Shown here: piece after piece, positions 6,801 to 64,000 of the stretch | How positions within the stretch are numbered: the first letter of the stretch is position 1 | Layout: each line of letters opens with the position of its first letter | Source of the DNA: Bigelowiella natans CCMP2755 | Taxonomy: Eukaryota; Protista; Cercozoa | DNA: 64,000 nucleotides | Direction: 5' to 3' | NCBI GenBank assembly: GCA_000320545.1 | Contig: ADNK01000002.1 | Location: 62,001 to 126,000, forward strand | Made by a program: the position numbers and the translations under genes | Notes under the pieces: generated by a model | Told to the model about the DNA's origin: nothing | What the model saw: the letters and a program-made list of their open reading frames with translations, nothing else | The model's database searches: none

Positions 6801-6989
6801 TCAATACAGCGAAAGTTTGAATGCGGATGAACGCATGTGCTCTACCGATTCTCCATTCGAAATGACAATTTGTGTCACATTGTTAGCAGCACAATTTGCC
6901 CTGGTCCCTCGTTCTGAACATGTCATTCTGCCTGGAGCAATGATGAAATCTGGCATGCATAATTTTCTGTTTCAAATGTTCAAAATCTA

Positions 6990-8460
6990 GTGAACATGCA
7001 GATTGCTGGATGCATGTGCGCTGGGTTTCCTTGGCAATCTGATCTGTCTAGCTGTGTGCATTTTTCATTCGATTTTGATTGTCTAGTTGTGTGCTTTCTA
7101 GCTTTGCATCACCTAGTCATGCGTCAATGAAAAACGTTGCAGAGTGTTACACATAGCAAGGCACAACATGCTAGCATGCTGGCATGCAATTTCTCTTGCT
7201 GCACGCTTGAATTGTCCCAACGTGCATGTGCACACACAACAGGAAGGAGCTCAACTGATGTGCACACGTGCACAGACACACTTCACGTCTGGATGTGTGC
7301 AGCAACCAAGCAAGAGAACTGGAATGAGCTAGCCAGCACCAGAGTGGGGTGGATTGGTCAAGGAAAGTGGCTCGATGTGTCACAGGTGCCCCCAGCTAGC
7401 CTGGCATCGTTGATGATGGACATGCACACGCATGGTGAACAGTGCGAGCGTGCAACCGTCTGAACACGTGCCTGCACGTGATGTCCAGATCTGGAGTGAT
7501 GCTGTGGCATACCTGTCCAGCTAGCTAGCTGTGCCCAGCTAGCCAGTCTAGCAGTGCGGGCGTGCCAGCGTGCCACGCTGCACATTCCGATCCAGATTTG
7601 GTTGGACGGCTTGATCAGACCAGCTAGCCAAGCCAGCACGAGAGCACTGGAGCAGTGCACGTGTCAGCACGCACCAGCTAGCTAGCTAGCTAGCTGGCCA
7701 GGGCGCCTGCTGCTAGGAGTCACCCAGTCACGTTGCGCGTTGCGTTGACGTGTTCGGGCGCGACCACGTTGGCACGGAAGTGCACCCTGTGCACACGGAG
7801 ACTGCACACTGGCACAAGTGGTGTGTTTTGTTTCGCTTGACGCGAGCGCCAGAGCGTGCTGGCGTGCACCACTGAGTCCACCGCTGGACCTAGCTAGCTA
7901 GCCAGCTGGAGACCGCTCTGGCGCTCCAGTTTTGGTGCGCTGTGATGCAAAACGAACACGTTTGCTAGTTTGGTGGTTGTTCAGTTGTGACGTGCACGCC
8001 AGCTTTGGTCATGGTTCCATCGAGTTTCGCTGGTTCGGACGCCCGCAGCCTTGGCAGTTGCTTGTTTGCACTTTTTTTTTCCAAAATCTCCTCCAGAGCT
8101 GCAGCCATCGATTTCAAATCGTTCTTGCACACCCGTGTTGAGCAATGAACTCGAAGGTGCAAAAGTCTGACCGAAGTGCTCGATCAGCACGTCCTGCTTT
8201 TCCCACAGACCTGAAAGTTGTCTGAAAGTTCAACGCTGGAATGCCCCGGGTGAACGTGAATGGGTGAACGAATGAAGCTTTTTCAATGCACAAGAAAAAG
8301 AGAAATCTGGAAAGGAGATTGTCGCGATTGGTTGATCATGTTCCAAAGTTTCAAAGAACCCTTTCGATCATGCTCACCATCGAGGTGCAACTGAGATGGT
8401 CCCTGGGAGACACTTTCTGTGCTGCCTCAAATCAGCTCTGCATTTTCTTGAACAATTGCA
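6990..8460. other. TpA-depleted, CTAG-retaining intergenic tract 1
   Basis: Manual count for 7156-8460: one TA outside CTAG (7510) against about 17 CTAG. Rich in CA/TG, with (GCTA)n runs. Confidence 0.9.
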
Positions 8461-10606: not shown

Positions 10607-10739
10607 TTCCTAATCTTGAAAAAGGATCCCAATCTTAATTGGATGGAGTCACTCCATTCTATTTCAAAGAGTTTCCAAAGCTGTTTCATTGTTCTCATCA
10701 CGTCGTGTCAACATGTATAGCGCATATCATTCTCTTGAA

Positions 10740-12230
10740 AATCATTTCCTCAATTTTGCTTGACACAGCGCGACACATCTAGACATGCATGCATGAATGT
10801 CAAGTCAACACCGCGTGTGGGTTGTGTGAGTGCATCATTTTTCAATCTTCCATTTTTTTTCTGCACAGTGCACATCCGCATGCATCATCATGACAATCAC
10901 CAGCACCTTTAGACCTGTTTTAGCCCCGCTAGCTAGCTAGCCGCTAGCCCGATCGATCACTGCATTCTTGCATTGCAAACAAACATGGCATTCCAACTGT
11001 GACAAAAGCGCAAACGCACTAGCGCAGTGCTAGAGCAGAACGGCCGGTGTGCATGTGCGGCAAATTCAGCAGTCTGGCTAGCTGGCAGTCTAGCAGTCTA
11101 GCAGTGCCAGCTAGCCAGACTAGCAGAGCTAGCTAGCTCTAGAGCTAGCAGAGTGCAACACACACTGGCACTTTCGAATTGCTGGAGCAACAGCATGCAT
11201 TTGAAAGAATGTGCTTCACATCATTCATTCATTTCCTCATTCATTTGAGTCAGCACACCTGCTAGCCTGGACACTCCGATGCTCCTTTCAGGTTCCCTCC
11301 TTCCATGAACCAACCAGGTTGTCAAGTGTCACGCATAGGCGCCAGCACGCTGGCTAGCCAGCTAGCTGCTAGCTGGCACGCTAGCACGGGACGTCCAGAC
11401 GTGGCAACCAGTCCATTTCCCCAATGAGTGGATTCGTGGAGGAGTGTGGAAGAGTTGGCACACTTCATGGTGAAATGCCCACGTGCTCTGCCACAACGTT
11501 CACGTGTTCGCATTGTCTGGTTGTGCCAATTGAGTTGTGTGCACCTTGAACCTTGAACCTGAATCATTCGTTTGCTCATTTTTCAATCAAGAGCTCATCC
11601 ACACATCCTCCCCGTTGAACACTGAACATTGAACTGAGCATTGATGCAAAACAACGTGCGCAAGAACCACATGCTGCATGCCAGCATGGGCGCCTGCAAA
11701 CAAAAATCATTGCGAGGACAATGAACAATGAGAACAATGAGAACAATGATGAAAAACCACACTTCCAAAGTGTGACAAGACACTTGCAATGATGTGCGAA
11801 ATGCAGTGCCTCGAACTGGCTTCAGCTAGTCAGTGAGCACTGACTAGCAAACTAGCGGGATTCATGCAAATTGGCACGTACCAAACATTGAATGCATCAC
11901 AACTAGCAGCCAAATGACGACGACGCAAAGCATCCATCCTGAGCAGGAACTTCCTGACAGCTACGTCCACACGGAGATCAACGTTGGGGACAACCGAGGG
12001 GGCGCCGAGCAAGACTCTGGTCTTGACAGAGTCGGGGGCATCAAAAAATGAAGAGCAAGCAGGAGATGCAGGGCCGAGAGCTGCTCTGATGCCGGAGAAC
12101 AATTGAATTCTCACAGCATTCAAGTGAGCACAATGATGGATGAGGTGGTCAACACTTTGAACAAGCAAGCAGCTTGCCACAAAAGGAAAATTGATTCAAA
12201 AAATCATTTTGAATTTGCTGAAAAGTGTCC
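10740..12230. other. TpA-depleted, CTAG-retaining intergenic tract 2
   Basis: About 5 non-CTAG TA in ~1.5 kb (10910, 10921, 11336, 11879, 11962), against more than 20 CTAG, many in GCTAGCTAG runs. Confidence 0.9.
11718..11814 (+). repeat. Dispersed repeat family A, copy 1 (homologous to 63781-63870)
   Basis: (acaatga)n-gaacaatgat...ttccaaa.tg..acaagaca.ttgca.tg...cgaaa.gcagtgcctcga is shared with 63781-63870. Confidence 0.8.
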
Positions 12231-12389
12231 TGTATTTCTACTTGACGACACAAGATCCTGGTGAGAAAAAGTACAAAAACATTAAGAACAAGAATCAACA
12301 ACGGTCTTATTACCTACCGCCCTTGTTCTACTTCTGCAAGCTAGTAAAGGAGGAGGAGGAGGAATTACCTCTTGCTACAGCAGGGAAAG

Positions 12390-14809: not shown

Positions 14810-14841
<32 letters not shown>

Positions 14842-14886
14842 TAGCGGAGATTCTGGAGGACATATTACACAGTTGTAGTAGTAGTG

Positions 14887-14919
<33 letters not shown>

Positions 14920-17900
14920 ATAGCAAGGATATCAAGGACGAAGAACAATCTACTAGGGAAAATGATGGTAGCTGTACCAGCAGTAGAACAAACAGCGATG
15001 GCACTTGTAAAAAAGAGCATCATCACCAGCATCATCATCATGAGAATCATCTATATGAGACTCTGGTAGAATTACTACGGCTGTTTAAAAACCTTACTTC
15101 TTACCAAAGCAAGGATCTTACACGAAGACTCATCCAGAATTCTTGTTTTAGAAATTTGTTCGTTATTTGTGCACATATGGTACAACAGCAGAAGAAGGCA
15201 GACACGATGGAGAGCAGGATTACATTGCTCCTCCTCCCTCCAGAGAACCAATGTAATCGAATTCTTTCACAATATGATGATGAATACCCGGATCTCAGCA
15301 AAGCTCTCGGACAAATAATGGCTAGACGACAGAATGAAGAAAAAGAAGAAGAAACGAATGATGATGATGATGATGATGAATACGGCGAAGAAGAAGACAT
15401 GAAAGTGCTACAACTACTACCTCGATTGGGATGTTTCAGGGAGTTGATCTCCTTCATTGCTTCTTCTTCCGAACAAAAGCAGCAGCACTTAGAATCTCTT
15501 CTCCTTGATGATGATATTAATACTAAACACAGTAATATTACTGATAATGCTGCCGCCCTTGGCCGACGACGATATCAAAGAAGAGAGGTTGCTATACTAC
15601 AATTCTTAGCAAAGCACATACTACGCAATCTGGATCGATTGTACCCGGAGCTCCCTGCAGCTTTTTCACTCATGATAGGCGGTACTACGGCTGCTGCTCC
15701 AGAAATGGGAACCTCGAAGAAGAGGGAAGAGAAGGAGGAGGAGGAGGAGGAGGAGGAGGAGGAAGAAGAGAAGATCCTATTTGAGATGATGCCTCCGATT
15801 TTAACGGAGAGGGATCTTTATATTTCTACGCCGGTGGCTCCTAAAAGGTTGGAAAATATTCGAAATATTGCAATTCATCGCCAATTATTCGTTCAGTTTT
15901 ATGAGGAGAAAGAGGAGAAAAATCAACTCAGAAAGCAGCAAAAGGAGGAGGGGAAAGATAAAGAGTTGGACGAGGACACTGTAACAGCAACACATAATGA
16001 TAAAGAGAAGAAGAAAGGGGATAATAATGATGATGATGATGATGAGGATGATGTAAAAATGAGGAGTTGGAAAGATGATGGAGATAGTCAAGTCAATACG
16101 GAAGAAGCAAACAACGATGGGCTGGATCATAATAAGGACAACAATCAAGAGAAACATCAACAAATTACGACAACTGGGCTTGATATTCCTAGCAGCCACC
16201 AATCAGAGGATGACGAAAGAGCGGAAAGGAAGAAACATAGTAGTAGTAGCAGTAGCAGCAGCAGTAAGGGAGGACAGAAGAAGGAGGGAGATCTGAAGAG
16301 TACTAGTACTACTACTACTAGTAGTAGTAGTGCACAAAGCAAACAGCCTCGCAGACCACCTGCTGCTGCTGCTGCTGCCAATTTAAATGAAACCGATGTT
16401 GGTATATATGATAATGATGAATCATATAAGAAAAGTTTTTCTTTCAAAGACGTACACAGCGAACTTCTGATGAAGAGGAAGAGAGTAAGAAGGGGCAAAA
16501 AGAGGAATTCTATACTAAGTAACACTAATCCTCTCGCGCTCGATTTAGTCGAAAATGAAGGAGAGGGAAAAGGGCGCAGCACCTCCTTCTCTATTTTGCT
16601 TTCATCGATACCTAAGGATTTTGATCCAGCCAGACGTTTGTATCTTGAGGACACTCGGTTCGCACTTGTGAGGCCATTTCACCACGAAAACCCTCCCACT
16701 ACCAAACAATCCTTCGATGATTGGGCAAAGACAAATTTTAGGGGTAAAAAGAAGAATTTCTTCAGCTCAAAGAAACTCAAGGTGGTGCCTGAGTATCAAA
16801 ATACAGAAATTCAAAAGCGTATTCTCAAGAAACTCCAAGCTGAACTCACTCACCAGGATATGGGAGCGATGAATGATCTCGCACGCATATTCTTCAAGCT
16901 GCTCATGAGCTTTCAAAGTGACGCCCCCTCTGTTCGATGTCCAAGTGAGAAGATAGAGGATATTCAGAGAAACAAGAAAAAGAAGGGGTGGACGAAACAC
17001 CACTCTATGCAAATCACAGATGAGATCTTTGCGCAGATATTGAAGCAAACGAGAGGTGAAGTTGGTAATAATCAACTCCGTAATGGGTTTATCGTTCTAG
17101 CTTTGGCCTGTGCTCAAGGTCTTCGTCCTTCTTCTACTTCTTCCAATGATTTGGAACAATGTGTTAGGCACCATATATGGGATGTGTACCATCAAAATGA
17201 GCAGGATTTCTTGTTGCAAATACTATGCCGCTGCGCTTGGAATGCACTAAATCAGAAGAACCCAAACTATAGCCTCCTCAAGATTGCGAAGATCATCGAC
17301 GAGACAGTGGAGAGGGAGAGGAAATTTTTAATTTTCTTCAAAGTATTCATGAAAAACAAGTATCGTGACATCGTAGAACTCCTTGATGGCGACAACGAAC
17401 GCCATATAGTCAAGACTGGGCTTTTGTATAAGCGGAGCAGTAGCAGGGGGAGAGGGGATGGCAAAATCTCAATAGTAGGAGGAGGAGGAGGAGAGATCAT
17501 GAGGAGTAATAGAAATAATCCAACCGGGGTAGCCACCAGTCAATTTCACCTAAGAAACTTCAAAATTGCGATTGAGGACACCGAATATTCGCATGTTCCC
17601 CAACCACAGTGCGTTCTTACCTACACCAGCCTCGCTGATAGGGGGAGGAAGAAGATCAAAAGCTACGCAATCCAACGCAACGACTTGAATTTCAAACTTA
17701 AAAGCACAGAGGACAACAAGAATCATTGGAAAGTAATCTACGTTGAAAAAAAAAATCTAGAAACAAACATTAAAGAAACTTTCGAGATAAAAGGTGAAAC
17801 AGACGAGGAAACGCTGAAATGGTTCAAATTTGCGAAGAATGCTGCTTCGATTGCACACGGACGGAGATTGATTAGGAGAAGATTGGGCAAAGAATTAGAA

Positions 17901-18551
17901 ATTCCATACCACAAACTCCCATCAAAGGGTAACAGTGGGGGTCTTGGATGGGATCTTACACAGCTTCTACACTCGGAAACAATGCTTCTTGAGTTGTTGG
18001 CTAAAGGAAGGTTTGGGGGACATCTTTCCTTTGAAGAGGACAAACATGTTGATATTGAGCAAGTCGGAGTACTTGTAATTAGGATTACATCATCATCATC
18101 GTCATCTTCAGAGGATATCAGGATTGATGTACCACCATATCGATCAGTGATCATAGGGTATGGCCAAAGAGCTCGTATACCGATCTGCGGTACACATCTC
18201 AGGAAACGCAACGAGGATTTCAGCAAGAAAATATTAATAGAATACAAGGGAGAGAAAAGAAAGTTCTGGACTGTAGCTCAAGTTGTAGATGAAATCATTT
18301 CCAAGGGCAAACGAGAGGAGGAGGAGGAGGAGGAGGAGAGTAGTGGTCATGACACCAAAGATGGATCCCATCGTACGACATTACGATTCAAGCTATTTCA
18401 TAAGAATTTGGGTCTTCAATTGCAGTGGATTTCTGGTACAAGAGTCCGCAATTTTGAGAGGCCTGAAGTTGATTATGGTGGTGCTGCAGTAGTAGTAGAC
18501 CACAAATCAAGAAAGAATATTCAAAAAGAACAAGAAGAGAAAGCTCGTAAA

Positions 18552-18586
<35 letters not shown>

Positions 18587-19730
18587 GTTAGAGAGGGAAC
18601 GAAAGAAGAGAAAAGAAGAGAGTGTTGCCAGATCTTCGCCCCCTCCATTCTTCTCATCACAGGACGCTAATGAGGTTGAGTTGAAGCGAGGGGAACACAC
18701 AAAGTTCATGTCTCGAAAAGTTGGGTGGCAAGGAGGCATTGTTACCGACTACTTCACCTCACCTCATGCTGATGCTGGTAAGTGGTTTCAAATTGAAGTC
18801 TCCAAAAAAAGTGATATAGAAGATATGGAAGTGTACGCATTTGACCGTACCAACACTGCCTTCGGAGGAGATGGCACTGCAACAACAAGAGTTGTTAAGA
18901 TTTCTCAAGAAAAGACTCTATATAAATACTTTTCGAGGTACCAGTATTTCTCTCGCCAATCATCATCTGATTTCTCCACAAGCAAGACTATACGGGTTTT
19001 ATTCACAGTATCGTTCATTGCTTCTGACCTCCACGGAACTCTTAATAAGATTCGTCGCTCGATATCAACATTTTGTGGCATGGAAGAATCTGAAGTGAGA
19101 GTACTTGATGCGGAGTTAGGATACGTGCACTTAGAAGTGGTGTTCCAACAGGAGGGTGAATACCAAAAGGCTGTGGATTTATTTCACAGACTAGCTGAAC
19201 CAAATACTTTCTCAAATCTCTTCCAAGGCTTCTTCAATGAAAGCCATCATCGTCTTCTTGATGTGTCCAATGTACAACTCATCAAACACAAAAGCATAAA
19301 AATGCCCTTACCCCGTCTATCGAATAAATCTCTGCGAAGAATAAAGAATAATAACAAGACGGGTGATAAAGCAACTCAAGGTAGGGGTGGTGCTTCAGAT
19401 GATATTATAAGTTCAAATACCGAGAATATCAACCAATTATCGAAGCTACTGCTTTTGGGGCATTACGACGATGCAAAGATAAACTCAGGTAAGAGAAGAG
19501 GATCAAAGAGGAAGTCGAGGAGGCGTGTGATGAAAAATCGAGAAAACCAGACAGTAGCTGAAAACAAAAATCTCGTCCACATGCTAGGATTTGTGCAAGA
19601 GGTAACCATATATATATTGATTCTATTATAATTTTTTCCTTCGTTAGGACGAAAGTCTGATTGATGATTATTGCAGGCTTTGGAAAAGCACTGTGACAAG
19701 CTTGAAACTACTAAGAAGCAAGTGGGTTAA
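12390..19730 (+). CDS. Very large (~2,200 aa) protein: divergent RhoGAP-like N-terminus, helical region, MyTH4 domain, PH domain
   Basis: ATG 12390, several exons, one 4,860-nt exon (14742-19601) and last exon 19677-19730 (ALEKHCDKLETTKKQVG*). MyTH4 signature QITDEIFAQILKQT...RNGFIVLALACAQGLRPS (~16780-17250). PH signature IVKTGLLYKR...FEIKGETDEETLKWFKFAKNA (~17400-17845). ADAAALVRAYIRKL...PPIP weakly resembles RhoGAP. Confidence 0.8.
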
Positions 19731-19889
19731 GCTGCTGGATATATAATAGCGTTGATGGGCAAAAGCTTCCTTGATTCATCCGAATCGCTTGCCCCTGCTA
19801 GGAATAATTAACGATGTTTTGAAATTATTACAGATCGATATAGTTCCTATTACTACCATCGCAATGAAAGAGTAGTAACGCAAGTATAT

Positions 19890-21000
19890 GTCTAGATGTC
19901 CCCACGTCCCGCGCAGCAGACTATGTAGCTAGCAGCGAATCTATTGCATGATAGCCGCGTAGTTGCTAAGGTCAGTGTTGCACACGACTAAAAATTAACA
20001 TAGCGCTGCATCTTCTTCACGCCACTCTAGCACTGTGCATCACAACGTGTACGATGCATGTCAACACACAATGACATCGGCTATTTGCTAGCTAGCTTGC
20101 AGACACATCGCACATGCAACATTGTACATGCACACTACTAGACTTGCACTGCTAGACTGCTGTGCTGATTGATTTGCATGATGAATGGATATCCGATGCA
20201 AACAGAGCAACGCACATGAAGACTCTCGGGTTCACTCGTAGTTCACTCCCTGCTAGCCTGTCTCGGATCACTGGAGACAGTAGACAGGCTCAACCTGCCT
20301 AGTGTTGCTACATCATGCTAGCATGCGTGGCTGGCAACATTGGCAATTTCAAATTTTCGAGAGGACTGTGCTAGTGTGCACTGCAGCCGAAGCTTAGCAC
20401 GCACGATGCGCAGTCCAGCAGTGTGCAATGTCATCGAAGATTTGGATCATTTGCTTTCTTGACCATTGCCACGCCACACGTCACCGCTTGAGGAACCAGC
20501 TCACTGCCACAGCAATGCGCGACGACAAAACAAAAAGATTGACATCTCTAGATCTGATGAGAAGGAACTGCAGCGCGAAATGCGCGACATTGCAGACCGA
20601 AACAACATGCATTTGATTGCATGAAACACATCATGGCGGAGACCAATAGATTCGACATTACATGCGCTGTGGCCGCTCGCTGCATTGCTAGATTGCACAG
20701 CTACATGAGGATGACCATTGAACAAATTTAATTGATCAACTACATTCTTCTTGTACTAGCACAATTTCCAGTGTATTGACAACGGACATCGTATGCTCTT
20801 GCACTATGCATTCAATCTATCCACTCGCCATCATGATGATAACGCTACAAAAGTGGTCAGCACATCGCGTGATGTTGATATCGCTACATGTATGTGTACG
20901 CTGATATACGATAACAACGACGAGGCACAACATAAGCGCTGTAGCCGCTGCTTTGCATAGCTACATCAGGATGACCATTGAAAGGATTTAACCACTTCAT
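19890..21000. other. Partially TpA-depleted tract between convergent gene ends
   Basis: 20400-20645 has no TA except one CTAG; the flanks keep some TA. Rich in gcatgc/tgca/ctag. Confidence 0.7.
20661..20993 (+). repeat. Dispersed repeat family B, two copies (20661-20734 and 20931-20993)
   Basis: Core gcgctgtRgccgct...ttgcaYagctacatSaggatgaccattgaa is present twice; a third copy is inverted at 28582-28645. Confidence 0.85.
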
Positions 21001-21081
21001 TATATCCGTCTAACGATAACAACGAAGTCAGGAGTATTTCATTTTGATGACCAGCATTATAACTAGATAACCACATCTCGG

Positions 21082-21118
<37 letters not shown>

Positions 21119-21122
21119 GTCA

Positions 21123-23819: not shown

Positions 23820-25253
23820 CCCTTACTCAGTTGAGTCAGTGATTCATAAGCGTGATTTGAGATTGTTGCAGGCTGCTTTTCCCCATTCTCGCCACTACTT
23901 CCTTCTTGACGCAAAGCTTCTAAATCAATCTATTTTGACGATGATTAAAATTGAATATTAAAGCAAGGTCGGACGAAGAGTCGTTTGTGTTGTTTTGGAA
24001 ATAAGAGACATCTGTCTTAGGAGAAAGCACAGGTACTAGGATGGATGACCGACTTAAATTATAAGGATAAACCACCACACTATTATGACTAAAGTCCTGT
24101 TGAATGCCTATTATCAACCTTGCTCCCATCCACAGCAGATATTCTCTCAACATATTTCATCAAGTCAATGCGCTTCAACTCCTTACGAATGTGCCTATAA
24201 ATCGTGATCACAAAAATATCCACACACCAACCAGAACACCAAGGTAAATTGTAACAAAGTCAACATCGTCATAATATGTAGAGCAGATTGTAAGAAATTG
24301 AACATCATCATATTATCAAGAGCAGTAGCAACCTCCAACGATCTTTTCGCTTATCCAGATTGATGACGAATATTTTGTCAAAAGGTAGTTTTTCTCCTCC
24401 TCCTCCTCCTCCTCCTCCTCCTCCCTTCTCTTGTTCCTTCTTGTAAGAAGCACTCTGTTCTGGTGGTTCTGAATGGCTTGCTGTTTTTTGGCCTCCCCCT
24501 CTTTCTCCTTCTCTTCCTTCCCCTCCTCCTCCTCCTCCTCCTCGATCACCATTATGTCCACGACCTCGCTCACGATTACCGTGAAGATCACCGCGCCGCG
24601 TTCTCACCGGGATTTTAAGAGGATATAAACAATGCTCTTTAGTATCATCATCATCATCATCATCGTATTGAGGAACATGGAACAGTGAGCAAAGAAGAGG
24701 ATCGGGCCCGTCATAGATTCTCAACTCAAATCCTTGAGATAATAAGCCTCCATAGCATTCCCACGTTCCGTACGTTTGCCCATAGAATCTTTCGAGACAC
24801 ATGCGAGTGGGGGATGATTTCCAAAACTTGGAGCGGATAGAAGTAATGTAAGTATGTGAAGCTTTAGAATCATGATGATGATGATGATGATGATCGCCTT
24901 GGACATGAGCATCTCTCTTGAGAGACCAAAGCTGTGGGCCGCTCGATGAGTTGCTGTATTTCATGCATATGCTTTATCAGTTTTATGCGGAATTTAAGAA
25001 TAATTAATTACCATGGGCGAATTGAAACCGGTAGCCGTGGAGAGTCGGCGCTCAAACAGAGATTCTTGGAAACATTGATGCGCAAAAGCACAGAAGCGGT
25101 TGTTGTGTCTACAGATGCTGAGATTGCGATGAAGACGATCACCATGTAAAGGAACTCACATCTTGATTTCCCAGAAAATATCTTTTTAACTGTCGCTTGC
25201 CTTTTCCTCCGATATTGTATTTTCAAATCTGAACTCCATTCAGTTGCATCCAT
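21123..25253 (-). CDS. Type II membrane glycosyltransferase family 25 with a ricin-B lectin N-domain and a C-terminal Tudor-like domain
   Basis: ATG 25253 and TM FLYMVIVFIAISA. Ricin-type repeats NLCLSADSPRLPVSIRPCNSSSGPQLW and MCLERFYGQTYGTWECYGGLLSQGF. GT25 motifs KIFVINLDKRKDRW, ERISAVDG, LTRGALGCALSHINIWRRIV, VLVLEDDA, TTVAYIVNYEAAKRLL. The last exons splice in frame to CSVGTTVIATWEDGSKYPGRILEIDKKRMTIVWDGEDTYSFVRPSEV, stop at 21123. Confidence 0.85.
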
Positions 25254-25950
25254 CCTCGTGCTGGAGGGGGATAGATCAAACTAAATTCAGATTACCCTTT
25301 TACAATGTGCGACAATGAAGTCATTGACGCTATGAGATAACACAACGAAACTATCGGGAAAATGATGATTCTTGAAATAAAGAGGTAGATTCACCTTAGT
25401 TTGGCATGTCATCTCACCATCTTCACATCCGCCAAAAAGTAGGTTCTTCCAGCAGCAAGAAGCTTCAATAATATCAATGGGGGGTATTCACGTGGCTCTG
25501 TCTTCACCTACCCTCGAACAGTTTGGACATGATTTTGGTGCCATTTTTACCTAAGATATGAATACGATCCAACAATTTCTGCAAAAAGGAACATGTGCGC
25601 GCACACAAAACCTTTGGTACCGGTGAAATATCGCATTGATAATTGTCTGGATTTCGTGCCATATTTTAACAAATAAATGAACATAATGCAAAATCCCCCT
25701 TCTTGGAGTTTGGGGTTGGCAGCGTTAGGATTTCCTCGTAAGATCGGCAATCTTCTTAGCTTTCATGTTGGTTTGAAAAAATCCCTGATATTTATCTTTT
25801 TTTAGCTCCAACATCGTAAATTATTGCCATAAGTGCAGAGTAATTTGAATAAATTAATCACTTGAAGCGTGGAGAAAGTCTCACTCTCACATCGTCAACG
25901 CGTTAACCCAACCCCCCCAAAGAGCACAACGTTCCAATCACACTGCTTGC

Positions 25951-26340
25951 ATGATTCGAGCTGCACTTCAACGACTTGGAAACTTCTCTACGAAAAACCT
26001 TCGTAGTCATTATCCCCGAAATCCTCCATCTCATCGTCAGTGCCATTTTCTGTCCCCGAAAAGGATGCACCCTGAGTCCCAGGTATCGGCGCGCGCGCGT
26101 GTAAAAAGTGTCTTGGAAACTGAGCTGTGAGTAGAGCTAGAGAGATACTGATTACGTTTATTATTGGTAGACATTCAATTCTTATCGGACTTTACCAGCA
26201 TTACTCTCCTCAATCGCTTTGTGCGCCTTCGCGGGTGCTACGCCTCTACTTAAAACCATTTTCCAGGACAAAGACGACTTGTGGATGTCGTGGTACGACG
26301 CCATTCTGCAAACTCATCAACAACGTTACTTTGTCCTTGA
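25951..26340 (+). CDS. Possible small (~89 aa) three-exon protein with a mitochondrial-presequence-like start
   Basis: MIRAALQRLGNFSTKNLRSHYPR...ESQ|TFNSYRTLPALLSSIALCAFA|GQRRLVDVVVRR...* using GT-AG introns 26083-26170 and ~26235-26266. No homology recognised. Confidence 0.3.
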
Positions 26341-26844
26341 AGAGCCCCAAAAAAATTAGGCAGCTTATATTTAATAGTTAGAATATATTTATTAATAAGA
26401 ACATGACACAGCCCTTGCGCTCCGGGAAATCTACGTTGAGATGCCAAACTTCTCAGCAATAAGAATTCGACGTCAAATTGTACAGAGCACAGTCCTGACT
26501 CAATAAAAGTGTACATAGAAATGAAGCAAAATCAATCACTAAAGCTATACTGAAAATGTCAAAAATTAATCGTGGCTCTCGAGTTACAGCTGATTGTTTA
26601 CAGACGAAACAAAGTGAAGAAAAATGAGCGGCGAAATGGACTGCATCATTTCACGTTTTGTCTGATGGAGAAACCATGAAAATCAAGATCAATAATGAAT
26701 AAGTCAAATCATGAAAGTTGTTAAGCATCGAGAAGCAACTAGTAAGAATGTCAACATGGAAATCCTGGAGACTGTGATTGTCTTCACGATCGGCAACGAA
26801 AGATTTCAATGGTGCTGCTGTGTGCAGTTTTTTAGCACGTAGAA

Positions 26845-28950
26845 ACATTTTTTCAAGTGCATGAATGGTTCAAATTCATGTCAGTGATGATCGAAAAGAA
26901 TCGATGTGCACACATGAATGATCGTTTCTAGGCAACGCCTTGCTGAACAATGCATGCAGCATCGTGTGCAATGTGATGCATCACCTGGTAGCACGTCTGG
27001 GGGCACCAGACGCACAGATCTAGACCTGGATGCCTGCAAGTGGAGCATTGGGAATCATCACGTGCAGCCTGTGGGTCGGCAGCTAGCAGCAGTCCATGCC
27101 AGTCTAGCAGTGCTAGCAGTGGTCATCTAGGCACGCCAGCATGCTTGTGATCTCTGGATCTGGTCATGACGATCCCGCCGACGCACGTGCAGCATCGCAG
27201 ACGCAAACAACAACATGCTAGCTGTCATGCCAAACTGAGCGAGCGTGGACACGAGAGATGGGTCGATCCACAGGCGATGTGAGTCACAAAGCGTGTGTGT
27301 TTGAACTCTGATCACGTGCAACTTGCTCTGCACATTGTCGTGCTGCTCCACAGCTAGACAGCTCAGACAGCTCAGACAGGCCGAAATGCCGAACTGGCGA
27401 AGCACTTCGAATTTGTGTCGAACGCGCTTTGGAACCATCGAGAACTCACTCAGAAACTCCCGACAGTTTTGTCCAGGCGAGTCCACCTCAGTTCCGTGCG
27501 CGTCAAGTCTTCGGTTCCGAATCGGACTCCCACAGCTAGCACAGCTAGACAGGTGACCTCCACGCGTGTCTCGATGGACGTTCGTCCGGCGGCACTCAGT
27601 TCTCCCTGGCTCCTGTGGTTCTGACACGTTTGGACGTCGTCAAGAGGGTCATTGTCACTTTTTTTGTTGTTGCACCATCGTTCTTGTTGTCATTGTGGTT
27701 GTTCGGACAGACAGTGCAACACCTCCCTCAACCAGTCAAGCCCGAAGGACAACACCCACGTGGCAGGCAGGTCTGGCAGGTGCTCTGTTCACAAGTCTGC
27801 GATGCACTTCACCTCGTTGGGCTTCGAGCTTCGAGAGTTCCGTGAGACTCGTGCCTTGCTGTCATCCTTTTCCAACGTCCCCGCGTTGTGTCCCATTTGG
27901 GGCACTTTCACCCTGGAAAAGGACACCCCATTCACAGCAGCGTCTCTCTGTTGACGTGCCTTTTGCCGTTCGGTCAGCGGTGGGGAAAGCTAGAAAGGGT
28001 CTTTTGTCCCGCCACGCCAGCACGGTGTCGCGTGCTGGCGTGTGGTCATCCCACGTGAGTGCATCGAAGTCTTCAGTGATCGAACGTCAAGTGCGTGCGA
28101 ACATCATCCTGGAGGGTTTCACCTCGGAGAAGACTCTGGACCGTGCTGGCGTGCAAGTTGCACGACGTTGCCACTTTGCTCCTTCCCACTTGCTTCGCAA
28201 CGCGACGTTCGTTTTCGTGGTTTCTCACGACGATCCTTTCAATTGCTCCAATGGAAACACTTCTTTCCTTCTTGCTTTCTTTCTTCTCTCTTGGCTTTTG
28301 CTGCCACTTCGCACTGTTGTTCGTTCCTGCATTTGTCACGTGTTGCACCTTGGTTTGTCCGCGCGCGTTGCCGCACAAGTGACGTCACCAGCAGCACGAG
28401 CAAGCTGCAGGAGGGTCTTCATTCAGGTGCAATGAACGCTCCTCCTTTTTCCCCTTTTGAAACTTGGCACACGGGACAGCAGAGTGATGTGACGTCACTG
28501 CACTTTCACGAGGCAGGCTGGTAGGTGCTTTGACTGGCTGAGTCTCGCTGGCTCGACTTGCAAGACGGTGCAGTGAAACAACAATTGCACTTTTTCATTG
28601 GTCATCCCAATGTGGCTGTGCAATGCCACGGCCACAACGCTGATGTTGCATCCACTTGTTTCCGTTGTGATGTCGTTCACGCTTGCAAACGATTGTTCTT
28701 GTTGCACCCCATTCGTTGTCACTTTGTTCCAAAACGTCACGAATCCTCCACTGAACAGACCACGTTGCTTCGTGAAGGTGAGGCTGTCAAGCTGGATGTG
28801 CCTCAAACAAGAAAAACAGAAGGAGAGAAAGAGGCACAAAGGAGTGGGGCGTGAAGCAATCGCAGCGTTGTGAAGGTTGTGGGCAAACAAACAAACGTGA
28901 TGATGGACAATGCTCCTCTTCCTCAACTTGCACGCACTCAAATGACTCAC
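26845..28950. other. TpA-depleted, CTAG-retaining intergenic tract 3 (most extreme)
   Basis: Only two non-CTAG TA found in 2.1 kb (GTAG at ~26989 and ~28522). Confidence 0.92.
28582..28645 (-). repeat. Dispersed repeat family B, inverted copy 3
   Basis: Reverse complement catcagcgttgtggccgtggcattgcacagccacattgggatgaccaatgaaaaagtgcaattg aligns with 20661-20734 and 20931-20993. Confidence 0.8.
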
Positions 28951-29159
28951 TACATCGCATCGATGTTATTGTCGCACCTTGCAAAATACCTGCATTACAG
29001 ACTTCATCCTGCAAAAACCGGCCAACACCCACACGCGATTCGGCCTGATGGAGGGCAAGCAGGCCCCAGCGGTACTTCTCCAGATACACCTCCTTCTCTC
29101 ATAAATTAAGGTTCACCTGTCTGCTGCTTTATGTATTTGTAATATGTTAATACTAGGGG

Positions 29160-37684: not shown

Positions 37685-37829
37685 ATACCTTGATCGCTTT
37701 TCAACGTTTATAGGATGGAATTGCTGTACTTTCTAACCGCAATACCGTGTCATTATTAGTTGAGCATAGAAATTAGGACATATTAAAACATCAAAGTGTA
37801 TTCTAAACAGTGACATACATGACATCAGT

Positions 37830-38400
37830 TAGTTATAGATTATCAGCCCGCATGATGCGCGCGACAAAGCTGGTGCTGAGCGAGCAATAGAGAGCACAAA
37901 CTGTATGTTTTGCAAAGTATTCAGCCGGTCCAACGTTGAAACCCATCACATTGTTCCAGCGTGCATGTAGCAGACTAAGACTAATAAATATACGCATTTG
38001 ATCAATAAGCGCTACAGCAGCGTAACTCTAGAACTAGCTTAGATGAAGCTTACTTGTGGTGTCACCGTAAGAATTGCCTTGCTACTCCCTCTTTAGCTCA
38101 TTGTGACACCAGGCCATCTAGCCATCCCTACTAGATGCAAGCATGCTAGACTTGGCGCATCGAACTGTTGTCATGTGCAGATCGATACATGCGCAGTTGT
38201 GCATACATGTTGACGTACTTGTTGAATGGGCTTGCACACACACACACACACGCCAATCGTATCATTTCTGCTGCTCACATGATTGTCATTGAATAGGTAA
38301 GTAACAATACAAACAAATGCTATGCCACTTGCTACGATGCTTTGCTGATATTGTAAATGAACAGCCCTCATGCACATAGCACTGACAGTTTGTATGGCTG
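37830..38400. other. Weakly TpA-depleted, RY-alternating tract between the convergent VPS52 and SEC8 ends
   Basis: Clusters of gcatgc, ctag and tgca (e.g. 38117-38250), with TA reduced but not absent. Confidence 0.5.
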
Positions 38401-38512
38401 GATTAACTCAGCAAGATTCACAGAAATATGTTCTACATAACTCATAATATGATTTTATATGATTGATGGAGTGTATCCTCCATTGCCCGTCATCATCATT
38501 GCTACATCACTT

Positions 38513-50199: not shown

Positions 50200-50900
50200 T
50201 CGAGGGGCGGGCACGTGCATTTTTTTTAAACGGACGCGGGTGTGCGTGGCGTACCGCGTACGATCCAGCTATGTCACCGCAATATTTACACCTAATAAAA
50301 TGTGTGTTCTGCATGCCCAGAATTTTGTATTCGCATAAAATTCTGTCTCATGTGGTAGCGCGCGATACCATTGAAATTATACAGTCATTATACCATGCTA
50401 CCGTAGACGCCCCATGTGTCATGTAGTCATGTACATACACATGATGTGTGTGCATGCATGCCCGTTTAGTTGTTTGACTGATCGACGTTACGTTGCATGT
50501 AAAGATCGTCTCGCTGTGCTTTGCTACTTGCAGTGGATGCACCTAGCAATGCAATGGCGCTATAGGGCGTGTACACGCTAGCAAGCGCGCAGCTAGTATT
50601 AGCCATACATGTAGCGTGTTTTGCATAAACATATCTTAAGCTAGCCAGACGCTTTCTAGTAGACCGTGCCATCTAGACATGTGCAATTCTTCTCGTGCGC
50701 ATGTGCGTTCTCATATCTACTCATGCCATTCTTCTAGTATATTGTACAGCATGCATGCTTGACAGACTAGCAGACCTATTATACTATGAGCGCATGGGTG
50801 TGCAATGACGCGTATTGCTAGACTGTACGTAGTACTGATTCGACGAGTGATCGAAAAGTGCAGCAATTTCTAGGCATTCATATTCGATACACAATAGCCA
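50200..50900. other. RY-alternating, CTAG/GCATGC-rich tract between the convergent KxDL and DCP1 ends
   Basis: Same word usage as the depleted tracts (gctag, gcatgc, gtgtgcatgcatg), but many TA remain. Confidence 0.45.
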
Positions 50901-51126
50901 GCTTGCTTACTTTATTAGATCTTACCCATCGATGAGTTAAAAATAAATAAACGTTTACCAGCGCTCAATGTAGCATTATATATGGTTAGAATCGCAGCAT
51001 CCCTTAATTTAGTTGCGCACGGGTTCGTGCCTTACAGCTGCATACAATAGTCCACAAATAATTATATTGTGCTACATCAGATGACCAACACACATAAGAT
51101 CCTTTAAGGTTGCACGAAGATTTAAG

Positions 51127-52577: not shown

Positions 52578-53107
52578 GATTTGATTTGGGCAGCAGGCAG
52601 GCAGGCAGGCAGAGTTTGGTAGGATGTGTCGATAGTTGTCAATTTGAGAAGTACTATTTTCCTTGTAGGTGTAGTAGTAGTAATAGATCTATGTATCTTC
52701 CAAATTTGTACTATTATTACACCTGAGAAAAACCAAACGACTATTATTCTTATTTCTTTTCTTCTTCGTCCTCTTCCATCTTTTCCTCCTCTTCATAATC
52801 TTCCTCCTGTCTTTCTTGTATTTTAGGATATATCCTGCAGGATATTTGAACTATTTTTTCGCTGCAATCGGATGATATTTATCACATACGACATCTGATT
52901 ATATTGTCGAGCACTACAAAATCCCGTTTCATCTCTAGTATCGAGTTGCGTACGCCCCTTGAAGCGAAATAACCAAGGTAAGATCCAGATCCAGAGAAGC
53001 ACATTTACCCTTAAGGCCTCATTTCGGTCGAGAGACATTTAACATAACGTTACATCTTTCCAGTAATTTACCAGCTGCAAATTTTTGTTACCTTGTTAGC
53101 CTTCATC

Positions 53108-53716: not shown

Positions 53717-53899
53717 TTTGCTGTATTCTCTTAATATTTTAAAATCGGTGCAATTAATATCGAATAAACGTGCACATAGTGTGTTAATGATGAAAGGTGC
53801 ATGCTCATCCTTATACGATTTTGCACAATTAACATAAATGGTATTTGAATATGACGCTGCATGGGCTCTGCTGTAGGATATGTAGTGTCTATAACTTCT

Positions 53900-54490
53900 A
53901 CTAAAAGAACTGCTTTCGGTTGCCCGTGCGCACAATAAGAAGGCTACATGCTATGCGAACAACAACACATAAAATGATGTATATTCGCAGTCTAGCAGTG
54001 CTGTGTGTGCATGCATGTAATCATTATTGCAGCTTACTGTGAGATTATCACATACCATACCTAGCTAGATAGTTCTAAATGTTAGACTTACCTGTGTACG
54101 TAACATAACACCAGTTTTAGCATAAGATTACACTACTACAGATATAATATATACGTATGTCTATTGTTTACCGTGTAGCTTCACTATTTCATCATCTTTG
54201 TTTGTGCTGGGCATTTAAATTTGTGGTCTGCGCAGCTATCTAGCTGTGATAATGATATGCTAGCTGTGTCGTGCTATGAATGGGCACAGCACTGCGCGCG
54301 CATATGTAAGACGGATACGATGTAATTGATCGATTAAGTGTGTGCATCTCTTGCAAACTATCCACATGCTGCGAGGCTAGGTATGCACATGCACTAGATG
54401 CAGCATATTTCGAGAAGTAGCATCCTCTTCAAACACACTTGAAAAGCATTAACGCTTGCGATACACACTGGCACACATCTGTCTTGCATT
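53900..54490. other. RY-alternating, CTAG-rich tract between the convergent LSM5 and monooxygenase ends
   Basis: gtgtgtgcatgcatg, ctagctag, gcactgcgcgcgcatatg, gcacatgcactagatgc; TA loss is only partial. Confidence 0.45.
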
Positions 54491-54531
54491 GAGATAATTA
54501 ATTAGAACTATTATTGCGTCTAGCTAATATA

Positions 54532-62349: not shown

Positions 62350-64000
62350 AAAGCGTGAGTTCCTTTCTGACAAAATTCATGCCCACAAGCATCCTGTTCA
62401 TGCCCACATTTAGACACATGTTCATGCATGGCACATCTGATTGATCACCTAGTTGCCCATTCGAAGATGATCATTGCTGAACTACGCGCATGTGGTCTCT
62501 AGAGTCTAGATGATGGTCGCTGCAAGCCATTTGTGAGCACACAATCAAATTAGCCTCGTATGACAGGACCACCATTCAGGCTAGCAGGTGTGCTGTCATT
62601 TGTGTCAGGCATGCGAACATGCCTAGATGTCTTCAGGCGAGACGAAGATGCAGGTGTCTAGCTGTAGCAAGCTGGAATTGTTGATGTTTCAGTTCATCAC
62701 ATCTAGACATGCAGATGAACACATCTAGATCTGCTCTAGTGCTAGCTAGCTAGACCCATTCACTGCGCGCACTGGCGCATGCTGGCATGGCAAGATGAGG
62801 TTTCACCATCATCTCTAGATCTGTTGCAACAACAATGATCTGGACAATGTGGCACATTTTGGCACAACTAGACAACACCAGATCGAGCAGACAATGTTCA
62901 TTGCTCCATGCTTGACATCACTCACGTGAGCTGTCTAGCTGTGTCTAGCTAGCTAGTCTAGCAGCAGTGTGCGTGGTGCGCATCAATGTGTTGTGCCACA
63001 CCAATCTAGCTAGCTAGCTAGCTGGTGATTTCCATGCGAACGACTCGGGATGTCTGTCTTCGATCTGGACATCGATCTCACACTAGCTAGCTTGCGCTCG
63101 AGCGTGAGCAAAAGTGTCCAGACGTCTGCACATCTAGACATGCAAGACAAGACTCATCCAAGGACACTTCGTTGTGTGTGCATCATTGCACGATCTAGCC
63201 CGGTAGCGACAAAAACAAAAAAGTGTGACACACTCGGCACTTGTTCACCACAGAAAAGAAACGTGTCAAACAGCAAAACTCAACAAGCTAGCAAGGCTAG
63301 CTGTGGCCAGAGGGTTCACTGCCACGCCAGCACGCGCATTGCCCCATTGGCCCAACTAGCCAACTGCTGCTTCCATCTTGCTTGCCAGCTTGCTTGCTTG
63401 GCTCAGTCTGGCAGTCTCGGTGCTGTGAAGCTCCAGAGCTGTTTTTGTTGTCGCTTTTGACCACATGCTATGTGTCATCCAATGAACGAACGCTTCCCCC
63501 CTTGTGAGCGCCTGATGTGCGCTCCCTCCTCGAACCTGGGAATGTTTGACATCGAACATTGCGACAACTTCGCACTGCCAGACTGGCACAGTCTAGCAGT
63601 CGCTGAGTGTGCATGTGTGCGTGCACGCAGCACCACTCTGAAACTCTGGAACAAACGTTCACGTCTAGACGTGCACGATGCAAGTGAACAATGAAACAAT
63701 GAAACAATGACAATGAACCTGGAAACGTGAACAAACGTGAACGAACGAACGGGTGAATGCCAGAGTGAATGAACAAGTGAACAATGAACAATGAACAATG
63801 AACAATGATGATGAACTACATTTCCAAAATGCAACAAGACATTTGCAGTGCACGAAACGCAGTGCCTCGAGCCAAACCTGGCGAGGTCCAATTTTGGGCA
63901 TGTCATGACGCCATGACAATGCTGCAACACTCGCTACGAACGCGTGTTGGCTCATGCATGAAGTGAAACAAAAAGGAACCAAGAATGGCATTCTAGCCAC
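62350..64000. other. TpA-depleted, CTAG-retaining tract 4 (runs off the window end)
   Basis: 62670-64000 has four non-CTAG TA (~63204, 63469, 63817, 63935) and about 25 CTAG. Confidence 0.9.
63781..63870 (+). repeat. Dispersed repeat family A, copy 2
   Basis: Aligns with 11718-11814 and is preceded by an (atgaaca)n 7-mer array. Confidence 0.8.

What the first reader, a model, noticed from the sequence alone, without database searches (positions are those of the whole stretch)
19731..21122. The signature marks DNA downstream of gene 3' ends, never divergent promoters
Seen: all four convergent gaps (19.7-21.1, 37.7-38.5, 50.0-51.1, 53.7-54.5 kb) carry the CTAG/GCATGC/RY-rich composition with partial TA loss. 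The four extreme tracts also begin just after a predicted stop codon, although two of those gene ends are uncertain. The head-to-head gaps (25.3-25.9, 48.5-48.7, 52.6-53.1, 59.1-59.5 kb) look ordinary, and the short tandem gaps at 1.0-1.4 and 2.7-3.4 kb lack the signature. Established: kinetoplastid base J, a modified T, marks convergent termination regions. Inference: the mutagenic mark may be tied to termination zones or untranscribed chromatin rather than to repeats alone.
Basis: partly seen in the sequence, partly recalled or inferred. Interest (0 to 1): 0.72.

Follow-up and report, generated by a model that had tools for sequence, protein, structure and literature searches.

The report
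TA-erased spacer DNA behind genes
Untranscribed DNA behind genes in this chlorarachniophyte-like marine alga carries an odd CTAG- and CATG-rich make-up, and in five places has lost nearly every TA step except inside CTAG. This likely reflects the TA-to-CA/TG hypermutation recently reported in Bigelowiella natans acting on repeat-derived spacer DNA, not a mark of gene ends.

Summary
The composition is real, but it is two things. (1) An unbiased scan for purine/pyrimidine alternation picks out all four convergent gaps plus the starts of tracts T1 and T3. The convergent gaps show alternation 0.59-0.65 and CTAG 6-17 per kb. The four head-to-head gaps show 0.45-0.50 and 0-2.5 per kb, at similar lengths. 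(2) True TA loss is confined to four tracts (6961-8460, 10726-12232, 26841-28950, 62412-64000) and one core inside the focal gap (20396-20647). Three of the four convergent gaps have no TA loss (TA o/e 0.92-1.12, window 0.81). In the four tracts, 91 of 109 surviving TAs sit in CTAG.

Copies of one tract module on marine metagenome contigs keep TA where the window copies carry CA or TG. That shows TpA->CpA/TpG change directly. A 2026 preprint describes this process in Bigelowiella natans, and the nearest named homologue of a window kinase is chlorarachniophyte.

Three of the four tracts lie in tandem gaps and run to about 210-245 bp before the next putative start codon. The mutation therefore does not avoid promoter-side DNA. 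The link to gene orientation rests on 4 against 4 gaps, several with unverified neighbours. Verdict: new loci of a known process, with CTAG sparing as a possibly new detail. A termination-zone mark is not supported.

The parts
19731..21122 (.). Focal gap G1, between the stop of a + gene (19729-19731) and an ORF-inferred - gene. RY-alternating, CTAG/CATG/TGCA-rich.
   Evidence: RNA depth 0-2.4 in 20005-20671 where the DNA run has depth 654.
20396..20647 (.). TA-erased core inside G1. No non-CTAG TA for 251 bp; 20310-20646 holds one.
20928..20983 (-). Module shared with tract T3 (28593-28648, opposite strand). This copy keeps its TAs.
   Evidence: At 4 TA columns in G1, T3 has TG x2, CA x1, GA x1.
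6961..8460 (.). Tract T1, TA-erased, in a tandem (+ +) gap. It ends 243 bp before the kinase ATG (8704).
   Evidence: 3 non-CTAG TAs in 1500 bp. TA o/e 0.30 and CA/TG 1.63. ATG.
10726..12232 (.). Tract T2, TA-erased. It starts about 120 bp after the kinase stop (10604-10606).
   Evidence: 5 non-CTAG TAs. High-copy stretch at 12034-12114 (table 3).
11716..11826 (+). Repeat module M1 in T2: (GAACAATGA)n plus about 60 bp.
26841..28950 (.). Tract T3, TA-erased. It fills the space from the end of the upstream transcript to about 209 bp before the next putative ATG (29160).
   Evidence: 2 non-CTAG TAs in 2110 bp. RNA depth 0 in 27342-28675 with DNA depth about 100. Upstream stop at 26357.
62412..64000 (.). 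Tract T4, TA-erased. It starts about 150 bp after a + ORF stop (62259-62261) and runs off the window.
   Evidence: 8 non-CTAG TAs. TA o/e 0.40.
63779..64000 (+). Repeat module M1 and its continuation in T4. Matches four metagenome contigs at 90-98% identity.
37829..38348 (.). Convergent spacer G2, RNA-free. Signature present without TA loss.
50318..50894 (.). Convergent spacer G3, RNA-free. Strongest RY alternation (0.65-0.69). TA o/e 1.19.
53851..54447 (.). Spacer G4, after the + LSM gene (stop 53714-53716). Right neighbour unverified. TA o/e 1.10.
53987..54001 (+). Exact copy of the 15-mer GCAGTCTAGCAGTGC. Other copies with 0-1 mismatch: 7543 +, 11093 +, 20146 -, 27099 +.
   Evidence: 17 matches at up to 3 mismatches against 1.31 expected, all inside signature regions.
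52600..53100 (.). Head-to-head gap used as control, with both neighbours verified by splice joints. Ordinary make-up.

Best explanation
Four 1.5-2.1 kb tracts and one short core in this window have lost almost all TpA except in CTAG. This is likely the product of the TpA->CpA/TpG hypermutation reported in Bigelowiella natans, acting on repeat- and microsatellite-derived, untranscribed spacer DNA.

The wider 'signature' has two layers.

Layer 1 (shown): the RNA-free DNA behind gene 3' ends is a special sequence class. It holds (CTAG)n arrays and isolated CTAGs, complex purine/pyrimidine-alternating runs built of TG, CA, CG and TA steps (hence CATG, TGCA, GCATGC), a recurring 15-mer GCAGTCTAGCAGTGC, and short modules shared between regions.

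Layer 2 (shown as a pattern, and directly for two modules): in some of these regions every TA outside CTAG has become CA or TG, on both strands alike. This raises GC to about 0.5-0.55 and opens spurious reading frames.

Inferred:
- The enzyme needs a flank that CTAG lacks on both strands. For example it may not act on A in CTA, or on A in TAG. CTAG is the only TA context protected on both strands under either rule.
- The placement behind genes, and the absence from head-to-head gaps, reflects where such junk-like repeat DNA inserts or is tolerated. The mutator then acts on silent DNA up to the edges of transcripts.
- It is not a mark laid down by termination.
For: TA loss: the 15 longest intervals without non-CTAG TA (up to 1532 bp, mean spacing 14.9 bp) all lie in T1-T4 or the G1 core. 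Tract TA o/e is 0.15-0.40 and CA/TG o/e 1.53-1.72, against 0.81 and 1.25 for the window. Three 1-kb windows meet the preprint's own cut-offs (cut-offs).

Direction of change: at the 7 alignable columns where the metagenome copies carry TA, T4 has CA x4, TG x1, TA x2. At the 5 well-aligned such columns, T2 has TG x3, CA x2. T4 against the other copies shows ts:tv of 13:1, 11:0, 8:0 and 2:0, with 8/13, 6/11, 5/8 and 2/2 transitions at TA<->CA/TG. T3 against G1 gives the same direction.

CTAG sparing: 91 of 109 tract TAs are CTAG, 65 of them isolated. CTAG density in tracts relative to unmutated gaps is 1.17. The other nine contexts are 0-0.11, and half-site contexts (0.05-0.11) exceed the rest (0-0.036). 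Fisher p = 3e-35.

Repeat nature: the 15-mer gives 17 hits against 1.31 expected, all in signature regions. M1 lies on four different metagenome contigs. A high-copy stretch lies at 12034-12114.

Silence: RNA depth is 0 across 27342-28675 and 0-2.4 across 20005-20671, where DNA runs cover.

Known process: preprint 10.64898/2026.01.13.699255 (abstract, Results, Discussion and one Methods section read).

Taxon: the nearest named homologue of the window kinase is from the chlorarachniophyte Amorphochlora amoebiformis, at 61% identity.
Against: No tool names the window's organism; Bigelowiella is inferred.

No viral or transposon protein domain was found in any tract ORF: 245 ORFs of 70 aa or more were scanned, and M1 had no match in viral contigs. 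'Foreign' origin is therefore unshown.

The long TA-free parts of T1 and T3 are single-copy by k-mer depth and share no detectable homology with each other or with the metagenome repeat. They could be native intergenic or promoter DNA, which would favour a chromatin-directed reading.

Tract edges coincide with transcript ends, not with identifiable repeat ends.

In this window all 4 convergent gaps and 0 of 4 divergent gaps carry layer 1. Tolerance of junk explains this only loosely.

CTAG could instead be kept by selection or regenerated by slippage: 26 of the 91 are in arrays, CCAG+CTGG is raised 3-fold, and one CTAG->CTGG change is seen in T4.
Confidence: 0.6

Rival explanations
1. One reading: a mutagenic DNA mark (a modified T, like base J) would be laid down on termination zones or untranscribed chromatin. 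Gene topology, not repeat identity, would then decide where TA is lost.
For: All eight regions start at or near a 3' end, and none lies in the four head-to-head gaps. T3 begins at the end of the upstream RNA contigs, about 480 bp after the stop codon, and ends shortly before the next gene. The RNA-free zones match the odd DNA to within about 20-110 bp. The long TA-free parts are single-copy.
Against: TA loss is absent in 3 of 4 convergent gaps. The large tracts are in tandem gaps and reach promoter-side DNA. Tract modules belong to dispersed repeats whose other copies keep TA. CA and TG gains are symmetric in 4 of 5 regions. The genes here are single spliced units, not polycistrons. The sample is 4 against 4 gaps, with several neighbours unverified.
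Confidence: 0.2
2. Functional spacer element: the CTAG-rich DNA with the 15-mer would be a terminator, boundary or topoisomerase-site element kept by selection behind genes. Its make-up, including the retained CTAG, would be selected and not mutational.
For: The 15-mer recurs in 7 of 8 regions. Of the five copies with 0-1 mismatch, four are in sense and close to the upstream gene. CTAG survives where all other TAs are lost. The four extreme tracts share the same order of parts on the + strand.
Against: G2 lacks the motif. The metagenome copies of M1 lack it too. Homology between regions is short and patchy. No large inverted repeats and no RNA family were found. The tandem gaps in 38-48 kb show no such DNA in the scan, apart from one repeat artefact. 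Orientation counts are too few for a test.
Confidence: 0.12
3. No special process: decayed alternating microsatellites plus GC-biased gene conversion, or chance composition.
For: The window is very rich in microsatellites, including (TA)n, (CA)n and (CTAG)n. The preprint gives the genome's ordinary spectrum as Ts/Tv = 7, which would preserve an alternating skeleton. CG steps make up 14-19% of steps in alternating runs, and a strictly TpA-limited process cannot make them.
Against: Gene conversion would deplete AA, TT and AT as well, yet only TA is lost and CTAG is kept. TA-free intervals of 950-1532 bp, against a mean spacing of 14.9 bp, are far beyond chance. Independent copies show the same TA turned into CA in one and TG in the other.
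Confidence: 0.05

Closest known systems
TpA hypermutation of integrated NCLDV and virophage DNA in Bigelowiella natans (Mettrop et al., bioRxiv 10.64898/2026.01.13.699255, 2026)
   Same: Only TpA is changed, to CpA or TpG. TA is depleted and CA+TG enriched. The preprint's NCLDV target is transcriptionally silent and single-copy. The window is from a chlorarachniophyte-like marine organism.
   Different: The tracts here are 1.5-2.1 kb, below the preprint's cluster rule of three 1-kb windows. They sit between ordinary host genes. They show no viral or transposon protein domain. Erosion is near saturation (TA o/e 0.15-0.40 against 0.45 for the NCLDV). The text I read does not mention CTAG, flanking context, microsatellites or gene orientation (0 hits for context, tetranucleotide, palindrom, microsatellite). 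Its figures and supplements were not visible to me.
Repeat-induced point mutation (RIP) of Neurospora and other fungi
   Same: A transition-only hypermutation with a dinucleotide target that wears down repeated or foreign DNA.
   Different: Opposite polarity. RIP turns CpA into TpA and raises TA and AT content (recalled knowledge). Here TA is erased and GC rises.
Base J at kinetoplastid transcription termination regions
   Same: The TA-containing target is compatible.
   Different: No modification can be read from sequence. The genes here are monocistronic and spliced. TA loss is missing from most convergent gaps. No mutational footprint of J is known to me.
ADAR or ADAT-type adenosine deamination (the enzyme class the preprint proposes)
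   Same: A>G with a 5' T/U preference.
   Different: ADAR is said to favour a 3' G (recalled knowledge). Here TAG/CTA half-sites are the slowest to be lost and CTAG is spared. The substrate here would be genomic DNA.
TpA-erasing hypermutation of transposons in diatom-like genomes
   Same: TA rewritten to TG or CA in silent repeat DNA, with survivors biased by flank, CTAG among them.
   Different: Those notes report TTAA-type survivors as well. Here TTAA is 0 of 109 survivors. They concern other genomes, and I did not test them.

Membership tests
TpA->CpA/TpG hypermutated region (Bigelowiella natans type) | TpA depletion (Rho_TpA <= 0.43) together with CpA+TpG enrichment (Rho >= 1.52) | tested here: met
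   1-kb windows 11001, 28001 and 63001 meet both cut-offs; 8001 and 27001 meet the TA cut-off only. Whole tracts: TA 0.15-0.40, CA/TG 1.53-1.72. Cut-offs.
TpA->CpA/TpG hypermutated region (Bigelowiella natans type) | The changes are A>G / T>C transitions falling on TpA | tested here: met
   Alignment A1: TA in the metagenome copies corresponds to CA or TG in T4 (5 of 7 columns) and T2 (5 of 5). ts:tv is 13:1, 11:0, 8:0 and 2:0. T3 against G1 agrees.
TpA->CpA/TpG hypermutated region (Bigelowiella natans type) | Cluster of at least three consecutive 1-kb windows meeting both cut-offs | tested here: not met
   No three consecutive windows qualify. The tracts are 1.5-2.1 kb. This is a size rule of the survey, not of the process.
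TpA->CpA/TpG hypermutated region (Bigelowiella natans type) | Target of foreign (viral or transposon) origin | tested here: inconclusive
   Dispersed-repeat modules are present. No viral or TE Pfam domain in 245 ORFs. No match in viral contigs.
TpA->CpA/TpG hypermutated region (Bigelowiella natans type) | Raised de novo mutation rate in mutation-accumulation lines | not testable with these tools
   One DNA run matches 24903-29020 with 0 differences, but hardly any TA is left there to mutate.
TpA->CpA/TpG hypermutated region (Bigelowiella natans type) | Host is Bigelowiella natans | tested here: inconclusive
   No genome is held. The nearest named homologue is from the chlorarachniophyte Amorphochlora amoebiformis at 61% identity. 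Small shares occur in marine RNA runs.
Base J-marked termination region | Glucosylated hydroxymethyl-uracil present in the DNA | not testable with these tools
   Sequence alone cannot show it.
Base J-marked termination region | Lies at the ends of polycistronic units or convergent strand-switch regions | tested here: not met
   The genes are single spliced units. TA loss is in 1 of 4 convergent gaps and 3 tandem gaps.
Fungal RIP | CpA>TpA change with TpA excess in repeats | tested here: not met
   TA is erased, not gained.

The most novel reading that the evidence does not exclude
The TpA mutator of this alga is steered by chromatin or transcription state, not by foreignness. It erases TA across whole untranscribed spacers between host genes, up to the transcript edges. 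It has a three-base specificity that leaves CTAG untouched. The CTAG-rich spacer DNA with its conserved 15-mer is a mutator-proof element that marks the ends of genes.
Probability: 0.2. Interest if true: 0.75.

Novelty: new member of a known kind. Interest (0 to 1): 0.45.

Why it matters
A TA-erasing mutator was described only in 2026, from two large viral inserts. These small tracts between ordinary genes suggest it also shapes ordinary intergenic DNA, at a scale the published 3-kb survey would miss.

The CTAG sparing, if it reflects enzyme specificity, is a fingerprint for finding the enzyme. It can be checked at once against the published de novo mutation list.

There is also a warning for annotators: TA loss removes TAA and TAG stops. 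T3 shows 24 ORFs of 60 aa or more in 2.2 kb, so some 'unannotated genes' in such regions may be spurious.

The separate contrast in make-up between convergent and divergent spacers is worth a genome-wide test.

Tried and rejected
- Whole-genome test of orientation: no genome is held for this window, so only this window could be classified.
- Codon-bias gene map: too noisy to place all genes. I used it only as weak support for strands.
- Pfam on all 245 ORFs of 70 aa or more: GT25 and LSM pass their cut-offs, Pkinase and MyTH4 fall just below, and nothing lies in the tracts.
- Homologue searches: P0001 region 640-1240 gave none. ORF 54501-54878(-) gave none among 1.84 billion representatives, so the right neighbour of G4 stays unverified.
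- Protein atlas on the kinase: no useful taxon.
- Viral origin of module M1: 0 matches in viral contigs.
- Homology of T1, T3 and G1-G4 to the 1-kb metagenome repeat (L001/L004): none above shuffles; only T2 matches.
- Full-length homology among tracts with a transition-tolerant aligner: only short modules. Control-to-control scores were inflated by microsatellites.
- Large inverted repeats or hairpins in the four gaps: none.
- Rfam and tRNA scans: none.
- Which flank protects CTAG (C at -2 or G at +1): product counts lean weakly towards C at -2, but the gaps are not true ancestors of the tracts. I treat this as a lead only.
- Strand asymmetry of CA against TG, as an R-loop or transcription-coupled process would give: none in T1, T3, T4 and the G1 core; mild in T2 (p = 0.011).
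- The 15-mer in the metagenome loci: absent.
- Possible fifth convergent gap near 31.0-31.6 kb: three GCATGC and no CTAG, strands unverified. Left out of the counts.
- RNA-free parts outside the joints and contig ends named above are not used as evidence.
Full report
WHAT THE WINDOW IS. It is eukaryotic DNA of about 41% GC, with GT-AG introns shown by RNA contigs. It is unusually rich in microsatellites, with 172 TRF rows. No whole genome is held. The stretch occurs in DNA and RNA runs of one coded organism, with small shares in marine metatranscriptomes. The nearest named homologue of the window's kinase exon is a protein of the chlorarachniophyte Amorphochlora amoebiformis, at 61% identity. 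The organism is therefore a chlorarachniophyte or close to one. Bigelowiella natans is likely but not shown.

In 500-bp bins the window has four extreme regions: about 7-8.5, 10.5-12, 26.5-29 and 62.5-64 kb. There GC is 0.47-0.60, TA o/e 0-0.4, and CTAG reaches 17 per 500 bp. Milder regions lie at about 20-21, 38, 50-51 and 54 kb.

A blind scan for purine/pyrimidine alternation (300-bp windows, dinucleotide arrays masked) returns these long hits: T1 (7087-7892), the focal gap (19915-21040), the start of T3 (26953-27257), 37850-38426, 50204-50956 and 53851-54447. It also returns two trinucleotide-repeat artefacts.

The four convergent gaps have alternation 0.59-0.65, CTAG 6-17 per kb and 30-66 alternating palindromic 4-mers per kb. 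The four head-to-head gaps have 0.45-0.50, 0-2.5 and 5-17. Per kb, CATG, TGCA, CTAG, GCGC and CGCG are 3.5- to 10-fold above the rest of the window.

RNA contigs end at 37779-37828 and 38349-38416, and at 50313-50317 and 50895-50897. CT..AC joints prove the right-hand genes are on the - strand. RNA depth is 0-2.4 in 20005-20671, where a DNA run has cover. The odd DNA is thus the RNA-free spacer between the RNA contig ends. Divergent gaps of 500-760 bp are as long as the convergent RNA-free cores (520-577 bp), so length is not the cause here.

The 15 longest intervals without a non-CTAG TA all lie in the four extreme tracts or in one core of the focal gap, 20396-20647.

THE TA-ERASED TRACTS. 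Their edges are sharp:
- T1, 6961-8460: 3 non-CTAG TAs.
- T2, 10726-12232: 5.
- T3, 26841-28950: 2.
- T4, 62412 to the window end: 8.

The window average is one per 14.9 bp.

In these 6,706 bp, 91 of 109 TAs sit in CTAG, and 65 of the 91 are isolated, outside any (CTAG)n array. Relative to the unmutated gaps, CTAG density is 1.17. Each of the nine other NTAN contexts is at 0-0.11. Contexts holding a CTA/TAG half-site are at 0.05-0.11 and the rest at 0-0.036. CCAG and CTGG, the transition products of CTAG, are raised about 3-fold, so CTAG is slowed, not immune.

CA and TG are gained equally in T1, T3, T4 and the G1 core.

The tracts hold no Pfam domain, no Rfam family and no tRNA. T3 shows 24 open frames of 60 aa or more on both strands, as expected when TAA and TAG cannot occur. 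RNA depth is 0 in 27342-28675, at single-copy DNA depth.

DIRECT EVIDENCE OF THE MUTATION. T2 and T4 share a module, M1: (GAACAATGA)n plus about 60 bp, 80% identical, with 20 transitions to 2 transversions in a transition-lenient alignment.

A pattern from it found four marine metagenome contigs, 90-98% identical to T4 and with different flanks. Two of them share a further 830 bp at 91% identity. M1 is therefore part of a dispersed repeat.

In the alignment there are 7 alignable columns where the metagenome copies carry TA. There T4 has CA four times, TG once and TA twice. At the 5 well-aligned such columns, T2 has TG three times and CA twice, often the opposite product at the same site.

T4 differs from the other copies by 13:1, 11:0, 8:0 and 2:0 transitions to transversions, most of them at TA<->CA/TG.

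A second module links T3 to the focal gap on the opposite strand. Where the gap copy has TA, T3 has TG, TG, CA and GA, and never the reverse. Part of T2 (12034-12114) is a high-copy repeat by DNA depth.

A 15-mer, GCAGTCTAGCAGTGC, occurs 17 times at up to 3 mismatches, against 1.31 expected. All copies lie inside seven of the eight signature regions.

WHAT IS KNOWN. A full-text search led to Mettrop et al. 2026 (bioRxiv 10.64898/2026.01.13.699255). I read its abstract, Results, Discussion and the dinucleotide Methods. In Bigelowiella natans mutation-accumulation lines, 230 of 231 mutations in the two regions, an integrated giant virus and a virophage, are A>G or T>C on TpA. The rate is about 1000-fold above background. 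Genome-wide, 124 clusters of three or more 1-kb windows are TA-poor and CA+TG-rich. An ADAT2-like adenosine deaminase is proposed.

The tracts here meet the compositional cut-offs and show the same change, but they are shorter than that survey's cluster rule. A second search found no other paper on hypermutation in this alga.

Earlier unchecked notes of this scan report a like process in diatom-like genomes, with survivors in TTAA and CTAG. Here TTAA is fully lost.

DOES GENE ORIENTATION MATTER? For TA loss, the window gives no support. The five erased places are three tandem (+ +) gaps, one gap cut by the window end, and one core in a convergent gap.

T1 ends 243 bp before the kinase ATG. T3 ends about 209 bp before the next putative ATG. 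Promoter-side DNA is therefore erased too.

T3 starts at the end of the upstream RNA contigs (26906-26909), about 480 bp after the stop at 26357. That fits either 'untranscribed DNA is the target' or 'the repeat-bearing DNA begins where the transcript ends'.

For the unmutated spacer make-up, the contrast of 4 of 4 convergent against 0 of 4 divergent gaps is real in this window. At best it gives p = 0.029. Several neighbours are unverified (and ORF-only strands). A possible fifth convergent gap near 31.0-31.6 kb shows only a faint signature.

MECHANISM. Shown: TA-only transitions on both strands in silent, partly repeat-derived spacer DNA, with CTAG surviving.

Inferred: the same mutator as in B. 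natans. A one-flank rule (no action on A in CTA, or none on A in TAG) would protect both strands only in CTAG and one strand in the half-site contexts, which matches the graded survival. Product counts lean weakly to 'C two bases before the A protects'.

The alternating CATG/TGCA/GCATGC runs look like alternating microsatellite skeletons reworked by transitions. TG and CA make up 68-80% of steps in alternating runs. CG steps make up 14-19%, which a strictly TpA process cannot make, so ordinary transitions must also contribute.

Whether T or A is the chemically altered base cannot be told from sequence.

VERDICT. The termination-zone reading is at most partly supported. The finding is best filed as new, small loci of a recently described hypermutation, with CTAG sparing and the convergent-spacer make-up as leads worth a genome-wide test.

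Noticed in passing
window 26900-29100: TA loss removes TAA and TAG stops, so T3 shows 24 ORFs of 60 aa or more in all frames, none with a Pfam hit or RNA cover. Gene predictors may call spurious genes in such tracts.
   Followed up: partly
window 14742-19631 (+): A single 1629-codon open frame with a weak MyTH4 match (25.3 bits, below cut-off) and many homopolymer runs. No homologue was found for residues 640-1240.
   Followed up: partly
window 12034-12114: DNA-run depth is about 50 times the local level, with several fixed differences from the window copy. This is a high-copy repeat inside the far end of tract T2.
   Followed up: no
L003 1-1565: A 32% GC metagenome contig joins a phage-type lysozyme and a 3TM holin to the M1 module at its end. 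It may be a chimeric assembly or a real junction.
   Followed up: no
L002 1-1618: M1 lies about 240 bp upstream of, and divergent from, a methyltransferase-domain ORF. In that copy the module is on a 5' side, not behind a gene.
   Followed up: no
window 50444-50461 and 54002-54019: Two convergent gaps share nearly the same alternating run, TGTGTGTGCATGCATG.
   Followed up: no
window 31000-31600: Possible fifth convergent gap, with three GCATGC, alternating CACACGCAC runs and no CTAG. The strands of its neighbours are unverified.
   Followed up: partly
window, whole: Trinucleotide and dinucleotide microsatellites are extremely dense (172 TRF rows in 64 kb), many of them inside apparent coding sequence.
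   Followed up: no
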